Shown here piece after piece: positions 6,703-55,883 of a stretch of DNA of 64,000 bases (position 1 is its first letter; each line of letters opens with the position of its first letter). The notes under the pieces are model-generated. The model was not told the origin of the DNA, made no database searches, and worked only from the letters and a program-made list of their open reading frames with translations. The DNA is from Octopus vulgaris. Lineage: Eukaryota. The stretch spans positions 90,458,001-90,522,000 of the forward strand of contig OX597823.1 in assembly GCA_951406725.2 (NCBI GenBank), read 5' to 3'. The position numbers were made by a program, and so were the translations under genes.

Positions 6703-7120
6703 ATGACCTCACAGAGGCAATGACAAGAGACTGAGACCTTTGGAGGTATGCTGTCATTGAGAAGACCCAGCAACTGAAGTGAGATCATAGCCACGCATGT
6801 CCGGCCCAGTTAAGAGTACACCCGATGCATTGGGTGATATGATATGCTTGAGAAGACCTGTTGACCCAAGTAAAACCAATATTGTAGCTGGGGCCAGTGC
6901 TCCCTGACTGGCTCCCATGCTGGAGGCATGTAAAAAGCACCCACTACACTCACGGAGTGGTTGGTGTTAGGAAGGGCATCCAGCTGTAGAAACCTTGCCA
7001 GATCAGATTGGAGCCTGGTGCAGCCTTCTGGCTCTCCAGACCTCAGTCAAACTGTCCAACCCATGCCAGCGTGGAAAATGGATGTTAAACGATGATGATT
7101 ATAATGATGATGATGATGAT
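6703..7120 (+). mobile_element. RTE LINE 3' end (ORF C-terminus, 3' UTR, (GAT)n tail)
   Basis: LTEAMTRD..LWRYAVIEKT motif, then AAAAGCACCCACTACACTC..GGAAGGGCATCCAGCTGTAGAAA UTR. Confidence 0.75.
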
Positions 7121-26252: not shown

Positions 26253-27444
26253 ATGGAAGTAATGGAAGAATTGGTGACGCGCATCCTCGATGATAGTGAT
26301 GCTGTTGACATCGTTTTACTGGACTTTGCCAAAGCTTTTGACTCGGTAAACCACCGCCTATTACTTGTCAAGCTTCAAGCATATAGTTTCCATCCGGATA
26401 TTGTATGATGGGTTGGTGCCTTCCTCTCAGATCGCTCCTTCCAAGTCCAAGTTAATGGTTCGTGGTCCGACGTCTCCTGTGCGAGCAGTGGCGTGCCTCA
26501 AGGTTCAGTGCTTGGGCCCTTGTTGTTCTTAGTCTTCATAAATGACTTGCCCGACGACCTCACGCAACACACCCTTCTATTTGCCGACGATATCAAACTG
26601 GTCGCTCCTCGCGGTAATATAGAGGATCTTCGTTGATGCCTCCACCAAATTTGGAAGTGGTCTAACGATTGGGACCTGTGTCTGAACGTGTCAAAGTGCT
26701 GTCATCTGCCTGTCGGCTCTACTCCTGTAACTCAACTTGATTTCGAGCCGGGTCGTCTGCTGCTGGAGAGGACCGATCAGGTAAAGGACCTAGGTATCTT
26801 GGTGGATTCCTCCTTTTCGCCTTCGGCCCAGTGCGTCCATGCTGCCAACAAAGCATGCGGAATTCTGTTCTTGATTCGACGGTCATTCGGAATGCTCACA
26901 GCAGCCATATTCCTACCACTCTATGTCACGCTGGTGAGACCCATATTGGAGTATGGGATTCAAGCCTCTTCTCCTTATCTCCTCAAAGACATACAGCATC
27001 TCGAAAGAGTCCAGAAGCTGGCTACCCGCATGGTTCATGGTCTCAAAAATTTGTCCTACGAAGAAAGGCTGAGGACGCTCGACCTTTATTCTCTTGAAAA
27101 ACGCCGCCGCCGTAGTGATCTCATTCTCACCCACAACATCATAAGCGGAAAGTGTAACCTCTCGAAACAGCTGTTCTTCACTCCTGCTCCAGAGCGTCGG
27201 CTGCAGGGTCATTCCGAAAAGCTCTACCTGCGACGATTTCATCTCAATCGAAGGAGAGGAGCTTTCTCCATTCGGGTTGCGGATCCGTGGAACAAGCTGC
27301 CAGACGAGATGGTGAAGATGCCGACGACCGCTTTGTTCAAAGCCTCCCTGGACCTCAAGTGGCCTGAACTCTTTACATAAACACCACTCTGTACTTAACT
27401 CCATGTCCCCCTACATGGCCTTGCTATTTGCTTTTGAGCCAAAT

Positions 27445-28479: not shown

Positions 28480-28870
28480 GCTACACCAGTGTTGCATAAC
28501 CAGCCCACTCAAAAGTACCTTGGATCGTAGGGTGACATGCTGTTCTTGAGGAGACCTATTGAGTCAATTACATCAACATCAACAGAAATATCAAAATCAA
28601 ATGAAATAGAAATTGTAGTTCTGCTCCCCGTGCCAGTAGCATGTAAAAAGCACCATCTGATCGTGGTCGATGCTAGCACCTCTGGCCCCTGTGCTGTAAA
28701 AAGCACCCACTACACTCTCAGAGTGGTTGGCATTAGGAAGGGCATCCAGCTGTAAAAACACTGCCAGATAAGACAGGAACCTGGTGCAGCCTCCTGGCTT
28801 CCCAGACCCCGGTCGAACCATCCAACCCATGCTACCATGGAAAACGGACGTTAAATGACGATGATGATAA
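28480..28870 (+). mobile_element. RTE 3' UTR copy
   Basis: Matches 52400-52760 and the inverted copy at 43750-44050. Confidence 0.75.
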
Positions 28871-39020: not shown

Positions 39021-39120
39021 NNNNNNNNNNNNNNNNNNNNNNNNNNNNNNNNNNNNNNNNNNNNNNNNNNNNNNNNNNNNNNNNNNNNNNNNNNNNNNNN
39101 NNNNNNNNNNNNNNNNNNNN
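39021..39120. other. Assembly gap (100 N)
   Basis: Run of N. Confidence 1.
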
Positions 39121-41070: not shown

Positions 41071-41925
41071 CACACACACAGATACATATAGACATATTCA
41101 CAATTAAGACCATACTTTTATACACACACACATATTCATATAAGTACATATACACGTGTAGTACATATACATGCACACATGCTTACACATACTTTGGCAA
41201 TAATTTATTAGTTCTGTTTCTTTGTAGTTTGTGAAAATGCTCTTTCTACATTCTCATTCATTTCATTCATCCATTTCATTTATTCGTTTCTTCCCTAATT
41301 CATTCAGGTATTCATTTCTTCTTTTCACTCTCTTTCTCTTTTTCCAACTTCATTCACTCTCTCTCACGCATTTTTATTTCATTTACATCTTTACAATAGA
41401 AACAAGGAAATATTGGTGAACATGTATATATATATATAAATATGTATAAATCAACATGTACACATCAACATGTATATGTAAACATGTATATATACATATA
41501 AACATGTATATATAAACAATATTGTTTGAGAAGGCCCAGTCACAGATGCTGTCTTTTGTGTGGTGTCAGATCTTTCTGACAGCTCATCACATCATAATTG
41601 TGAAAATGAAATTGAATAATCCTATAAAAGAAGATTAAAGATTAAAAAAAAAAAATGGTAAGCTAAAAAAAAAATCAAATAATAAAACTAATCAATTTTA
41701 GTTAAATATTGGTTCTTAATTTAGTTGCATCTTGCTTTTTATGATGGAATTTATGATGGAATTGGTCCTGTCATGTAAAAGTATGTTCTGTATAAGACTA
41801 ACATCCAATTTTTCACAAGCTAACGAGAGATCCTTTATACTGTAACTTTGCCTGCTAGAAATAGTAGCTAAAGTGTCCTTCAACTTGCACAATATACCAG
41901 CTTCATGCTATTGTTACATTATTGG

Positions 41926-42316
41926 AGTAAAGATTGTTTGTCAACATAACATGGCAGTCCTGGTTTAGGACGAATGCTGCTGTAATTTAGCCCCAGGTGA
42001 CATCGTCTCCAGCTTGTTATACAACATGATCTGCGTCTTTATATTTTCGAACAAGGGCATTTAGCACCCCCACTCAGCTCAAAACAATATCTGTGTATCG
42101 TGATTTCTGGGTTATTTCTCTTCATCAGCACAGAATAATTGCGATACACAGATATTGTTTTGAGCTGAGTGGGGGTGCTAGATTCCCTTGTTCGAAAATA
42201 TAAGGACACAGATCGTGTCGTATAACCAGTTGGAAATGATGTCTTCTGGGGCTAAATTACAGAAACATTCGTCCTAAACCAGGACTGCCATGTTATGTTG
42301 ATAAACAATCTTTACT
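41926..42316. mobile_element. Fold-back element: 175-bp inverted arms around a hammerhead
   Basis: Arms 41926-42100 and 42142-42316, about 15 mismatches; minus-strand HHR 42090-42134 TCTGTG-CTGATGA-agagaaataaccca-GAAA-TCACGA-TA-CACAGA. Confidence 0.8.
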
Positions 42317-42589
42317 ACAAAGTACTGTTGCTGAATATCTCTCGTTGTGAGATTTAAAAATACTAATTTTCTAATGTTACCATATTGTTTATAAATTTAG
42401 GAACAAGGCCAGCAAGTATGTCTGTTGATTACCTCAGCCCCAGTATTCAACTGGTACTTCTTTTATCGACCCTGGAAGGATGAAAGGCAAAGCTAACTTT
42501 GATGGGATTTGAACTCAGAATGTAAAAATGGATGAAATGCTTCTAAGCATTTTACTTGGAGTGTTATTGACTTTGCCAGCTTGCCCCTC

Positions 42590-43060: not shown

Positions 43061-43605
43061 AATGCAATTGGAGCTTTGTATCTTTCTTAGTCAACATAAG
43101 CTCTTTTCTTCCAGGTAAAATAAACATCAGGGATGCTTTGCCTCATGCAGGAGCTACCCAGGGATTTACAAGTTGTTCTGAATCAATTGCAATGTTGGAA
43201 AACCTTCCCTGTCAACAGCAAGTGTCTCAAAGTCACAAGCGTTTCATGCCTTAGTGGAACAGCACTTCACTTGAGTGGGACAGTAAGGACTTTTGTTCTC
43301 TTTCCAACCGTAGCCATCTTCAGCTAGTTTCAGCTGCTGTGCCTATTTCCTACATGACTTTCTTCAGTTGTATGGGTTCCAGTCATATCTTCTGCAGGAA
43401 ACAGCACAACGATCTAGCTGGAAAGATGCAACAGATGGCTTCACTGGAGAATGAAACTGTATGCCATTCCTTCACAATTTAAAATAAAAGAGAACAAACA
43501 TATACATATATATATATATATCATCGTATATATATATGTAGGTCCCGGGTTGAGTCGGGGTTAACCACAGTAAATAAGGTACTCAATACATAGCAGAGTA
43601 AATTA

Positions 43606-43737
43606 ATTTATTATATAGAAGGAGCTTCTACAGGACTAGAACTGTTTCATTCAAATGAAATCATCAGGAAGCTTCCTGATGATTTCATTTGAATGAAACA
43701 GTTCTAGTCCTGTAGAAGCTCCTTCTATATAATAAAT
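43606..43737. ncRNA. Perfect 132-bp palindrome encoding a type I hammerhead on each strand
   Basis: Centre AAG|CTT at 43671/43672; plus-strand HHR 43670-43720 AGCTTC-CTGATGA-TTTCATTTGAAT-GAAA-CAG ttctagtc CTG-TA-GAAGCT. Confidence 0.8.
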
Positions 43738-43749
43738 ATATATATATCA

Positions 43750-44050
43750 TCGTCATCATTTAATGCCCGTTTTCCATGCTGGCATGAGTTGGATGGTTCG
43801 ACTGAGGTCTGGGAAGCCAGGGGGCTGCACCAGGCCTCAATCTGATCTGGCAGTGCATCTACAGCTGGATGCCCTTCCTAACACCAACCACTCTGAGAGT
43901 GTAGTTGGTGCTTTTTATGTGCCACCGGCACAGGGGCCAGAGGAGCTGGCATCGACCATGATCAGATGGTGCTTTTTATGTGCTACTAGCAAGGGTATCA
44001 CAACTACAATTTCCATTTGATTTGATGTTGACATTGCTGTTGCTGTTGAT
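43750..44050 (-). mobile_element. RTE 3' UTR copy
   Basis: Reverse complement of 28560-28870. Confidence 0.75.
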
Positions 44051-44053
44051 ATA

Positions 44054-44101
<48 letters not shown>

Positions 44102-44179
44102 AATAAAAGAACATATGCATATATATAAACATATATGTATGTACCTACCTCTACATGTACATATACACGCATATATGTG

Positions 44180-44850
44180 TACAGGACACCAAAAAGACGT
44201 CGAACACATAGAGAGACGAAAAACAAGACACAAACCAAGGAACAGAACAAGAAAAAAAGGGGAGTACAGGACAATGAGCACAACGAAAAAACCCCTTCTT
44301 CAGTCGCTAAGATTTCATCTACTCTACGTTTCGAAGGATAAAAGCGAGACGTATCTTCGAAGAAACTTCCTTCCTGCGAAAAGCAAATCAATTAAAATTC
44401 TGAGATCTTTTCGCAGAGGGGTAAAAAATGGTAAAAAACGCAAGACGGTAACGACAGTACAAACATATAAACAGTAAAAAAATATATATAAACAGTGGAA
44501 AAATAAATATATAACAGTAAGAGACAGGACAAGGAGAACAAGATAAGAAGGGCTGTTTACGCCAGACGAAAAAAGTATTGCAAACGCTGGATTATAGTGG
44601 ACGACGAGAGAGCAGGAATGTCGACCAGTAGCCTTAGAAGGCGGGCGAGAAAAGACAGGATAGCAGTTACGACGGAAGTATCGTCGCAGATGGACGACGG
44701 GAATGGGGGAGGAGGAGCAAGAGGAAGGGAGAGAAGAAGGGGAATGGTGCGAGGAGACCATGAAGAAAGGTGAGGGGGAGAGAGAGAATGAAGAATGAGA
44801 GAGAGAGGAAGAGACAAGTTAAGTGAGGGAAAAAAGACGAAAAAGGGAAT
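44180..44850 (-). mobile_element. Unclassified CpG-rich insertion in a TA microsatellite, possibly a Penelope-type terminal repeat
   Basis: Many intact CpGs; minus strand has TCCTTC-GAAA-CG-TA and a hairpin at 44374-44416; end resembles the 581/27501/57049 elements. Confidence 0.35.
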
Positions 44851-54237: not shown

Positions 54238-54597
54238 AAGAAAGTTGGTTTGTGAAAGCACGTGGGTGAATATATAGAAAAAGTAAAGAGTGAAAAAACT
54301 ACAGAAGGCTTAAATGTTAAAAAATATATATATTTGCGTCAATATGTCTGAAGAATATTAGAAAATTAAATTTTTCTCTTATAATGACATAATTTAAAAG
54401 AAATAGAAAATTTAAAAATTTTTTTTTCTCTTATAATGACATAATTTAAAAGAAAGAGTGGTTTCGCGTGTAGCTTTTCAAATTTCTTGTGACGTTATGT
54501 TTATGTTGAATAGAGTTATCGTTATGTTTATGTTCAGGAGAGTTCTAAATAAGGGAAGGTAGCGAGTGATTTCTTCCGGTGTAAGGGAGATAATCGC

Positions 54598-55480
54598 TTA
54601 AAAATTTTTTCCTTTCCCTTGGTGTGAATTTCTCTGTATCAGTATGTTCGGATGGTTGAGTCTGGGCTTGTACTTTTCAATGAAGAATGTTTCCTTGTTT
54701 AGTCTAATTTGTGTTGATGATCCGAAAGCACATTGGTAAAATGGAAAGATTAAAAATTGTGGTAGTAGTTGCTTTGCGCATTTCTCAATGTGCTCACTAA
54801 AAGGTATCATTCTATATTCTGGGAATGCAATCTGTTGTTGATGCAGTGTGCATCTACGTCTGAGTGATAGTCCCGTGGAACCCACGTAGTCTTGGTGGTA
54901 GCCCGATCATTTTATGACATAAATTATGTTTTCAGAGGCACAAGTAAAGTTAGATTTGATCTTGAATTTCTGTCCCTCTTTAAAGAGGAATTCTGATCCT
55001 TCTAGCAGGTTAGGACATGTTGCACAGTTCGATCTACCACATTTTTTTACTTTTGCATCCGTAATTTCAGAAGACAATTTTGCCTTTGTGAGAATCTTTT
55101 TAAGTGATTTAGGCTGTTTGTAGCTTTTAATGATTTGGTGTATGTTTAGAATTTCCTTTAATTTGGGGTCTTTATGAAGTATTGGTAAATTCTGGGTGAT
55201 GATGGTGAAGGCTTCTTTGTTTCTGGGGTTGTATGTAGATATGTAAGGTAGTATTTTCGGGGAAGGTGTGTTGTTGTGTTGAACTTTTCTTAAAGTTTCT
55301 ATGTTGATTTCTGTTGCACGTCTGATCCCATCCTCTATGAGTTGAGCTGGGTAATGTCTGTCAATTAGGGTGTTTTTGAGTTCTTGCAGTCTAAAGTTCC
55401 TGGTATTTGTTCTGATACTATTGTGCATATCCTTCTTGCAAGGTTGAAGGGGATGTTTGTTTTAGTGTGTCTTGGGTGGC
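54598..55480 (-). pseudogene. Penelope ORF C-terminus: thumb/linker plus GIY-YIG endonuclease
   Basis: HPRHTK.NIP..LARRIC, YP, LPY, CGRSNCATC, FTCASENIIYVIK*..YVGST..LRRR..H..HI..RLNKETFFI..P.LN; one frameshift and one stop. Confidence 0.9.
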
Positions 55481-55721
55481 GTGCTTTCGGATCATCAACA
55501 CAAATTAGACTAAACAAGGAAACATTCTTCATTGAAAAGTACAAGCCCAGACTCAACCATCCGAACATACTGATACAGAGAAATTCACACCAAGGGAAAG
55601 GAAAAATTTTAAGCGATTATCTCCCTTACACCGGAAGAAATCACTCACTACCTTCCCTTATTTAGAACTCTCCTGAACATAAACATAACGATAACTCTAT
55701 TCAACATAAACATAACGTCAC

Positions 55722-55760
55722 AAGAAATTTGAAAAGCTACACACGAAACCGGTCTTTCTT
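55722..55760 (+). ncRNA. Variant hammerhead (U3-A8 core) in the Penelope terminal repeat; mirror copy at 54450-54488 (-)
   Basis: AAGAAA-T-TTGAAAA-GC tacac (G/A)C-GAAA-CCGG-TC-TTTCTT. Confidence 0.55.
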
Positions 55761-55883
55761 TTAAATTGTCATTATAAGAGAAAAAATTTTTTTTTAATTT
55801 TCTAATATTCTTCAGACATATTGACGCAAATATATATATTTTTTAACATTTAAGCCTTCTGTAGTTTTTTCACTCTTTACTTT

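What the first reader, a model, noticed from the sequence alone, without database searches (positions are those of the whole stretch)
43606..43737. Perfect spacerless 132-bp palindrome that is a bidirectional hammerhead
There are no mismatches over 66+66 bp. The symmetry centre AAGCTT supplies the 5' strand of helix I for both the plus- and minus-strand ribozymes. CTGATGA, GAAA, a 4-bp helix III and a GUA site are intact, though helix II opens with a U-U pair. A transcript could switch between a full hairpin and the ribozyme fold. Perfect palindromes are unstable, so this is either very recent or an assembly artefact.
Basis: partly seen in the sequence, partly recalled or inferred. Interest (0 to 1): 0.75.

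Follow-up and report, generated by a model that had tools for sequence, protein, structure and literature searches.

The report
Head-to-head stub of octopus Penelope retroelement
This mirror-image stretch is one of hundreds of short stubs of a Penelope-like jumping gene, two copies of the gene's ribozyme-bearing end joined head to head, likely made in one insertion and predicted to fold as a plain hairpin rather than act as an RNA switch.

Summary
The palindrome is exact (66+66 bp), with a type I hammerhead motif on each strand. It is not unique: the genome holds 359 exact copies of its 22-bp centre and 2,092 of the adjoining tail end. The unit is 201 bp (43537-43737): a 137-bp arm and a 68-bp arm of a Penelope-like element's pseudo-LTR, head to head, overlapping at AGCT, inside a 16-bp target-site duplication. 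Longer copies run into an RT + GIY-YIG-type frame with Hydra-clade motifs. The U-U pair is fixed in the family (169 of 169 arms) and common in published Hydra-clade hammerheads. Inverted pLTRs with a one-sided tail are published. A switch is unlikely: the hairpin is computed to beat the ribozyme fold by 75 kcal/mol, and the antisense arm is transcribed first in both directions. Likely mechanism (inferred): both cut target ends prime copies inside one RNA, both run off its 5' end and join. A TATA-like box at -29 and piled-up 5' ends point to +1 as the transcription start. Reads tying the centre to this locus were not found; cleavage is untested. The scan reported this kind before, here and in other genomes.

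The parts
43606..43737 (.). Perfect spacerless palindrome, 66+66 bp; axis between 43671 and 43672
43537..43673 (-). Long arm: pLTR positions +1 to +137 (hammerhead motif plus tail)
   Evidence: 98.5% over 135 nt to the pLTR of ORF-bearing copies L091, L092, L093, L095
43670..43737 (+). Short arm: pLTR positions +1 to +68, ends in AT-rich sequence
   Evidence: 98.5% over 68 nt to the 3' pLTR of L093; 38 of 43 short arms end at +65 to +72
43537..43605 (-). One-sided tail, 69 bp (+69 to +137); in longer copies it runs on into the RT frame
   Evidence: 2,092 exact matches to its last 19 bases
43670..43720 (+). Type I hammerhead motif, predicted cut after 43714, U-U at 10.1/11.1
   Evidence: family variation; cleavage untested
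43623..43673 (-). Type I hammerhead motif, mirror copy, predicted cut after 43629
   Evidence: cleavage untested
43670..43673 (.). AGCT overlap of the two arms (+1 to +4 of the pLTR); inferred annealing point and inferred RNA 5' end
43512..43527 (+). Target-site duplication, left copy (16 bp: TA run plus 6 non-repeat bases); 9 further AT bases lie between it and the tail
43738..43753 (+). Target-site duplication, right copy, directly after the short arm
43745..43940 (.). Unrelated dispersed repeat at whose TA-rich head the element sits (SINE-like by recall, not tested)
   Evidence: 84-87% inverted matches at 6908-7103 and 28697-28869

Best explanation
The palindrome is a 201-bp stub of a Penelope-like retrotransposon with Hydra-clade motifs: two copies of the hammerhead-bearing pseudo-LTR joined head to head, likely made together in one insertion and likely inert since. 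Shown: family membership, arm and tail anatomy, target duplication, variable junctions among copies, agreement of the two arms at subfamily sites. Inferred: the endonuclease nicks both strands of a TA-rich target about 16 bp apart. Each free end primes reverse transcription inside the element RNA, one at +137 and one near +68. Both copies run off the RNA 5' end at +1, a likely transcription start with a TATA-like box at -29. The two new ends anneal through the self-complementary AGCT and are filled in. A read-through transcript would fold into a 64-bp hairpin; the stub lacks the upstream TATA-like box.
For: Parent: the tail continues into an RT frame, and the upstream flank of ORF-bearing copies is not palindromic; 258 matches to that native flank at up to 1 mismatch, many as divergent pairs 26 bp to 7 kb apart. 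Architecture: of 60 tail-bearing copies taken in order on contig C1, 43 show an inverted arm (6 perfect, 31 abutting with other junctions, 6 with a spacer), 11 show none, 6 run off the fetched stretch. Fixed outer ends: 38 of 43 short arms end at +65 to +72. Inner ends: 22 of 60 long arms start at +1 to +3 after removing 2 that continue into another subfamily's flank. Same template: arms agree at two subfamily sites in 40 of 42 and 54 of 55 informative copies of 117 examined. Against simple fold-back: in 11 of 43 the short arm reaches over 5 nt further 5' than the long arm, in 4 the arms share nothing. TATA-like box at -29 in 40 of 43 upstream stretches. Target duplications of 15-17 bp visible in 4 of 43 copies, this one included. 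Published: inverted pLTR with one-sided tail (PMC3846280; PMC8557442); both strands cut and extended, internal initiation at two sites, uncleaved RNA as main substrate (PMC11167929).
Against: No read evidence for the start site; all runs were contigs. The extra-G (cap) signal is only suggestive: 63 junction matches with G at -1 against 66 without, of which by hand count 22 are an AG-microhomology junction and about 21 native-like flanks; 5 of 9 in the in-order sample. G is also expected from short inserts templated on CTGATGA. Unequal arms can come from later deletion at the palindrome centre, so they do not exclude fold-back. Arm agreement can come from gene conversion or one dominant source copy; 3 copies have discordant arms. 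The AG at +1/+2 follows a pyrimidine-rich run and could be a 3' splice site. Pfam support is weak: RVT_1 E 0.0033, below cut-off, and no GIY-YIG hit. No listed contig ties the centre to this locus's own flanks.
Confidence: 0.85

Rival explanations
1. Same element, but the mirror arm comes from fold-back self-priming: one cDNA is made, its end folds back at the centre and is copied, as proposed for rotifer Penelopes (there on an antisense template).
For: Arm agreement 40 of 42 and 54 of 55; proposal in PMC3846280 discussion; native AGCT or AAGCTT at the axis.
Against: A 4-6 bp palindrome without a loop cannot prime on itself (inference). 11 of 43 short arms hold sequence missing from the long arm. 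Some junctions have both arms complete to +1 with 1-4 extra bases between. The fixed AT-rich outer end of the short arm fits target priming.
Confidence: 0.2
2. The 200-bp palindrome is itself a non-autonomous element copied as one unit (MITE- or retrozyme-like).
For: 359 identical centres; 13 of 25 stored exact-centre loci have perfect arms of exactly 66 bp.
Against: Only 6 of 43 inverted copies in the in-order sample have the perfect centre, and most other junctions differ from each other. The perfect centre occurs in more than one subfamily. The stub has no TATA-like box. No tandem units as in retrozymes.
Confidence: 0.08
3. A functional RNA switch between hairpin and bidirectional ribozyme, kept at this locus.
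For: Core and helices intact on both strands; subfamily changes fall at N7 and in loop II, which fits selection on the fold in the parent element.
Against: Hairpin -106.9 against catalytic fold -31.9 kcal/mol; even one arm alone has a computed catalytic share of 3-4e-4 because of two competing hairpins. The antisense arm comes first in either direction (sequence). No locus-specific feature. Metazoan PLE hammerheads cleave weakly or need protein (PMC4209133; PMC11167929).
Confidence: 0.04
4. Fold-back chimera or assembly artefact at this locus.
For: No listed contig spans the centre together with this locus's unique flanks.
Against: Unequal arms, different flanks, a 16-bp target duplication with 6 non-repeat bases, hundreds of paralogues with the same layout, and an 89-nt contig of run X5 bridging such a centre with 36 and 54 letters on the two sides.
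Confidence: 0.03

Closest known systems
Hydra-clade Penelope-like elements (Craig et al. 2021, PMC8557442; read: outline, passages, section 11, supplement parts 1-2 and search hits)
   Same: RT then C-terminal endonuclease; RWR (RWK-like), DKT, CxCx5C linker, CxxC and CxH, no CCHH; (TA)n targets; type I hammerhead in the pLTR; U-U opening of helix II in 14 of 25 listed Hydra families by my count of File S2.
   Different: Not Hydra-1_Obim: other hammerhead sequence, and two family motifs had no hit in the Hydra files. Repeat unit about 4.3-4.8 kb with a long microsatellite-rich 3' region, against 'generally under 3 kb'. Helix III loop of 8 nt against 1-3 nt in the listed Hydra families.
Inverted pLTR with one-sided tail in EN+ PLE insertions (Arkhipova et al. 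2013, PMC3846280; read: passages and discussion; PMC8557442 Fig. 2 legend)
   Same: Head-to-head pLTRs, overlap or palindrome at the junction, tail on one side only, short target duplication.
   Different: Here the tail is 69 bp, not 30-40; most sampled copies are ORF-less stubs; inner ends pile up at one base.
Poseidon element of Anolis, in vitro (Frangieh et al. 2024, PMC11167929; read: parts 1-2 of 4 of the text)
   Same: AT-rich target, two internal start sites bounding the tail, both strands cut and extended, hammerhead cleavage not needed for insertion.
   Different: Another clade; the parts read do not describe head-to-head products or run-off at the RNA 5' end.
LINE-1 twin priming and untemplated G from the cap (review PMC4859970; read: 4 passages)
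   Same: Two target ends priming on one RNA give an inversion; extra G at full-length 5' ends.
   Different: In LINE-1 the two pieces are adjacent parts of the RNA (recalled); here +1 to +68 is usually copied twice.
Animal non-LTR retrozymes (bioRxiv 10.64898/2026.07.22.740005; read: part 1 of 5)
   Same: Type I hammerhead, pLTR-related, non-coding.
   Different: Retrozymes are head-to-tail tandem units; this is one head-to-head pair with a coding parent.

Membership tests
EN+ Penelope-like element | One frame with RT followed by GIY-YIG endonuclease in longer copies | tested here: met
   Frames in L091-L093, L095, L097 with YRDD and VY..YIG motifs; 802 relatives at E <= 1e-20, mostly about 700 aa; Pfam only RVT_1 below cut-off, no GIY-YIG hit; all seven fetched copies are broken or partial
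EN+ Penelope-like element | pLTRs direct or inverted, with a tail on one side | tested here: met
   L093 has an inverted tailed pLTR, the ORF and a tail-less 3' pLTR; 43 of 60 copies inverted
EN+ Penelope-like element | Hammerhead motif in the pLTR | tested here: met
Hydra clade | RWK motif and DKT in place of DKG | tested here: met
   RWR and DKT in the frames; RWK in two close relatives (criteria)
Hydra clade | CxCX5C linker; CxxC and CxH near the end; CCHH absent | tested here: met
   All three motifs present in L093; one unconserved Cys inside the GIY-YIG core
Hydra clade | N-terminal GxKF/Y not conserved | tested here: inconclusive
   GFKS stands after RWR; no GxKF/Y seen by eye
Hydra clade | Insertion into (TA)n | tested here: met
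Hydra clade | Generally short, under 3 kb (a tendency, not a strict criterion) | tested here: not met
   pLTR-to-pLTR 4.3 kb in L092 and 4.8 kb in L093, with a frame of about 2.1 kb
Hydra clade | Placement in the RT tree with published Hydra sequences | not tested
   Only a by-eye look at Hydra-1_Obim rows in the supplement
Type I hammerhead ribozyme | Core CUGANGA, GAAA, NUH with helices I, II, III | tested here: met
   N7 and loop II vary between subfamilies while stems hold
Type I hammerhead ribozyme | G10.1-C11.1 pair of canonical hammerheads | tested here: not met
   U-U in 169 of 169 arms; so a Hydra-type variant, not a canonical motif
Type I hammerhead ribozyme | Self-cleavage | not testable with these tools
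   Computed catalytic share 4e-3 for the 51-nt core, 3-4e-4 with flanks
Non-LTR retrozyme | Head-to-tail tandem units, each with a hammerhead | tested here: not met
   One head-to-head pair
MITE or fold-back DNA transposon | Terminal inverted repeats at both ends of a fixed unit | tested here: not met
   One end is a 69-bp unpaired tail; centres vary; the parent is an RT element

The most novel reading that the evidence does not exclude
This family shows how Penelope inversions form: the mRNA starts, capped, at the first base of the hammerhead; the two cut target ends prime at +137 and +68 on one sense RNA, the upstream copy is displaced, both run off the cap, and they join through AGCT. That would replace the antisense self-priming proposal and explain why most copies are 200-bp stubs.
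Probability: 0.5. Interest if true: 0.45.

Novelty: new member of a known kind. Interest (0 to 1): 0.22.

Why it matters
The locus itself is ordinary retrotransposon debris. The family has some use: how Penelope-like elements make tandem and inverted structures is named as open in PMC8557442, and here two fixed outer ends, one favoured inner end, a TATA-like box at -29 and concordant arms give a model that 5' RACE and an in vitro assay can test. Hundreds of perfect 60-bp hairpins could also feed small-RNA silencing or RNA editing if transcribed (inference, untested).

Tried and rejected
Rfam: no hammerhead family matched; the sub-threshold microRNA hits reflect the hairpin only. Pfam gave no hit above cut-off for the three parent frames. 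Sequencing runs: no RNA holder listed on record; all runs were contigs. Laying four runs on the locus and three guessed-RNA runs plus one DNA run on the promoter-pLTR-ORF stretch of L092 could show no start site, and no splice joint in the pLTR was listed; neither is evidence on expression. The cap-G test is confounded by templated inserts and is kept as suggestive only. A 3' splice site at the axis was considered (AG at +1/+2 in all subfamilies; a precedent in D. virilis, PMC4209133) and ranked below a start site because of the box at -29; it is not excluded. tblastn hits of the parent frame in the window came only from the non-element end of that frame. Look-up of earlier findings by sequence found nothing. 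Paper searches listed no paper on this family or on a run-off, double-primed model; the library lacks most subscription papers, and only parts 1-2 of 59 of the one supplement opened were read in full. One page of that supplement's figures holds no text, and the bioRxiv supplements are closed. No structure or complex job was sent; none was needed.

Full report
Observation. The stretch 43606-43737 equals its reverse complement, with arms of exactly 66 bp and no spacer. A script scan finds a type I hammerhead motif on each strand: helix I of 6 bp, CTGATGA, helix II opening with U-U, GAAA, helix III of 4 bp and GTA, with predicted cuts after 43714 (+) and 43629 (-). It folds at -106.9 kcal/mol, z -25.5. 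Rfam has no match at gathering score and no hammerhead family among its weak matches.

It is a repeat. The window lies in a 2.8-Gb genome. A search with one arm scored 40 of 448 candidates, and all 40 loci had an arm on the opposite strand (the query crossed the centre by 6 bases, which favours palindromes). Exact counts: 359 copies of the 22-bp centre, 388 arm matches with other junctions under a filtering pattern, 2,092 tail ends; reversed-pattern controls gave 0. A database protein 94% identical to the parent frame is labelled Octopus vulgaris, so the host is likely an octopus.

Anatomy. The unit is 201 bp, 43537-43737: a 137-bp long arm on the minus strand and a 68-bp short arm on the plus strand, overlapping at AGCT. 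The long arm has a 69-bp unpaired tail. A 16-bp direct repeat with 6 non-repeat bases brackets it (43512-43527 and 43738-43753), with 9 further AT bases between the left copy and the tail. Such duplications of 15-17 bp were visible in 4 of 43 copies, three of them from a search that selected short TA flanks; elsewhere they would be hidden in pure (TA)n. A fold-back chimera would not give unequal arms and a target duplication. In public runs, one 89-nt contig bridges such a centre with 36 and 54 letters on the two sides, and two 61-nt contigs cross it by fewer than 31. These may be paralogues, and no listed piece ties the centre to this locus's flanks.

Parent. In a minority of copies the tail runs on into a reading frame. 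[quoted passage not shown] L093 has the textbook layout: inverted tailed pLTR, ORF, tail-less 3' pLTR, TA runs at both ends. Pfam support is weak. The frame has 802 relatives at E <= 1e-20 among 7,112 candidates, mostly about 700 aa. The motifs match the Hydra clade as defined in PMC8557442 section 11: RWR for RWK, DKT, CxCx5C, CxxC and CxH, no CCHH, (TA)n targets. The unit is longer than that clade's usual size (4.3-4.8 kb), and no tree was built. It is not the published Hydra-1_Obim: the hammerhead differs and two family motifs had no hit in the Hydra files.

The hammerhead. U-U at 10.1/11.1 is present in 169 of 169 arms matched in the stored loci, while subfamily changes fall at N7 and in loop II. 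By my count 14 of 25 Hydra families in File S2 of PMC8557442 have the same U-U opening, so it is a clade trait and not decay. Activity is untested. Computed, the catalytic fold holds 4e-3 of the ensemble for the 51-nt core and 3-4e-4 with flanks, because one hairpin takes the GAAA and another takes the cut site; in the whole palindrome it holds 6e-53. In either direction of transcription the antisense arm is made first, so the hairpin should also win during synthesis (inference). A switch is therefore unlikely. Published PLE hammerheads of animals cleave weakly or need protein (PMC4209133, parts 1-2 of 4 read; PMC11167929).

How the palindrome arises. I took the first 60 of the 100 listed tail ends, in order on contig C1 (two of them share flanks and look like one duplicated locus). 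43 have an inverted arm: 6 perfect, 31 abutting with other junctions, 6 with a spacer; 11 show none; 6 run off the fetched stretch. Outer ends are nearly fixed: the long arm at +137 by selection, the short arm at +65 to +72 in 38 of 43. Inner ends vary, but 22 of 60 long arms start at +1 to +3 after removing 2 that continue into another subfamily's flank. Copies with longer arms also come as divergent pairs at many distances. So the mirror arm is likely built anew at each insertion. The arms agree at two subfamily sites in 40 of 42 and 54 of 55 informative copies of 117 examined, with 3 discordant copies, which points to one template but also fits conversion or one dominant source. In 11 of 43 the short arm reaches more than 5 nt further 5' than the long arm, and in 4 they share nothing; this is hard for fold-back unless later central deletions did it. 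A TATA-like box lies at -29 in 40 of 43 upstream stretches, across subfamilies. Junctions at +1 often carry a G that the native flank lacks: 63 matches against 66 (22 explained by AG microhomology and about 21 native-like, by hand count; matches, not loci), and 5 of 9 in the in-order sample. An extra G is the known cap signature in LINE-1 (PMC4859970), but here templated inserts could give it too, so it is only suggestive.

Model (inferred). Staggered nicks about 16 bp apart in a TA-rich target; each 3' end primes inside the element RNA, as shown in vitro for an Anolis PLE with two internal start sites and both strands extended (PMC11167929); priming in the 5' pLTR gives cDNAs of 137 and 68 nt that run off at +1; their ends anneal through AGCT and are filled in. 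I put about 0.95 on the PLE stub identity, 0.6 on double priming over fold-back, and 0.6 on +1 as the start site.

Known and new. Inverted pLTRs with a one-sided tail and a junction palindrome are published (PMC3846280; PMC8557442). The family was not listed in the supplement parts seen or in five paper searches, within the limits of that library. The scan's index holds 138 findings with these words in at least 28 genomes and 239 fitting notes in this genome; several reach the same double-priming reading. My reading was written down before those look-ups, and they are not independent evidence. Verdict: real, a new member of a known kind, interest 0.22.

Noticed in passing
window 54424-55786: Inverted repeat of 185 nt (92%) flanking a 184-aa frame at 54907-55461 (-) that looks by eye like the C-terminal part of another Penelope-like protein.
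   Followed up: no
window 41922-42320: Inverted repeat, arms 184 nt, 90% complementary, 31-nt spacer; perhaps another fold-back stub.
   Followed up: no
window 44100-44800 (-): Piece with hammerhead-like boxes that looks like the end of an unrelated Penelope-like family; the motif scans did not score it.
   Followed up: partly
window 26637-27380 (+): 247-aa stop-free frame resembling by eye the C-terminal part of a LINE reverse transcriptase.
   Followed up: no
window 39021-39120: 100-base N gap.
   Followed up: no
L019 (G000:C5:114625958-114629029): Three-armed copy with two AGCT centres 72 bp apart.
   Followed up: no
L061 and L078: Short direct partial tandems in which the ORF start breaks off and jumps back to pLTR +1 or +2, with a G at the joint; fits a template jump at the RNA 5' end.
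   Followed up: partly
G000:C10:90533291-90533310: A longer copy of the same family with native upstream flank lies about 11 kb beyond the window's right end.
   Followed up: no
L096 192-998 (+): 268-aa frame that looks caspase-like by eye.
   Followed up: no
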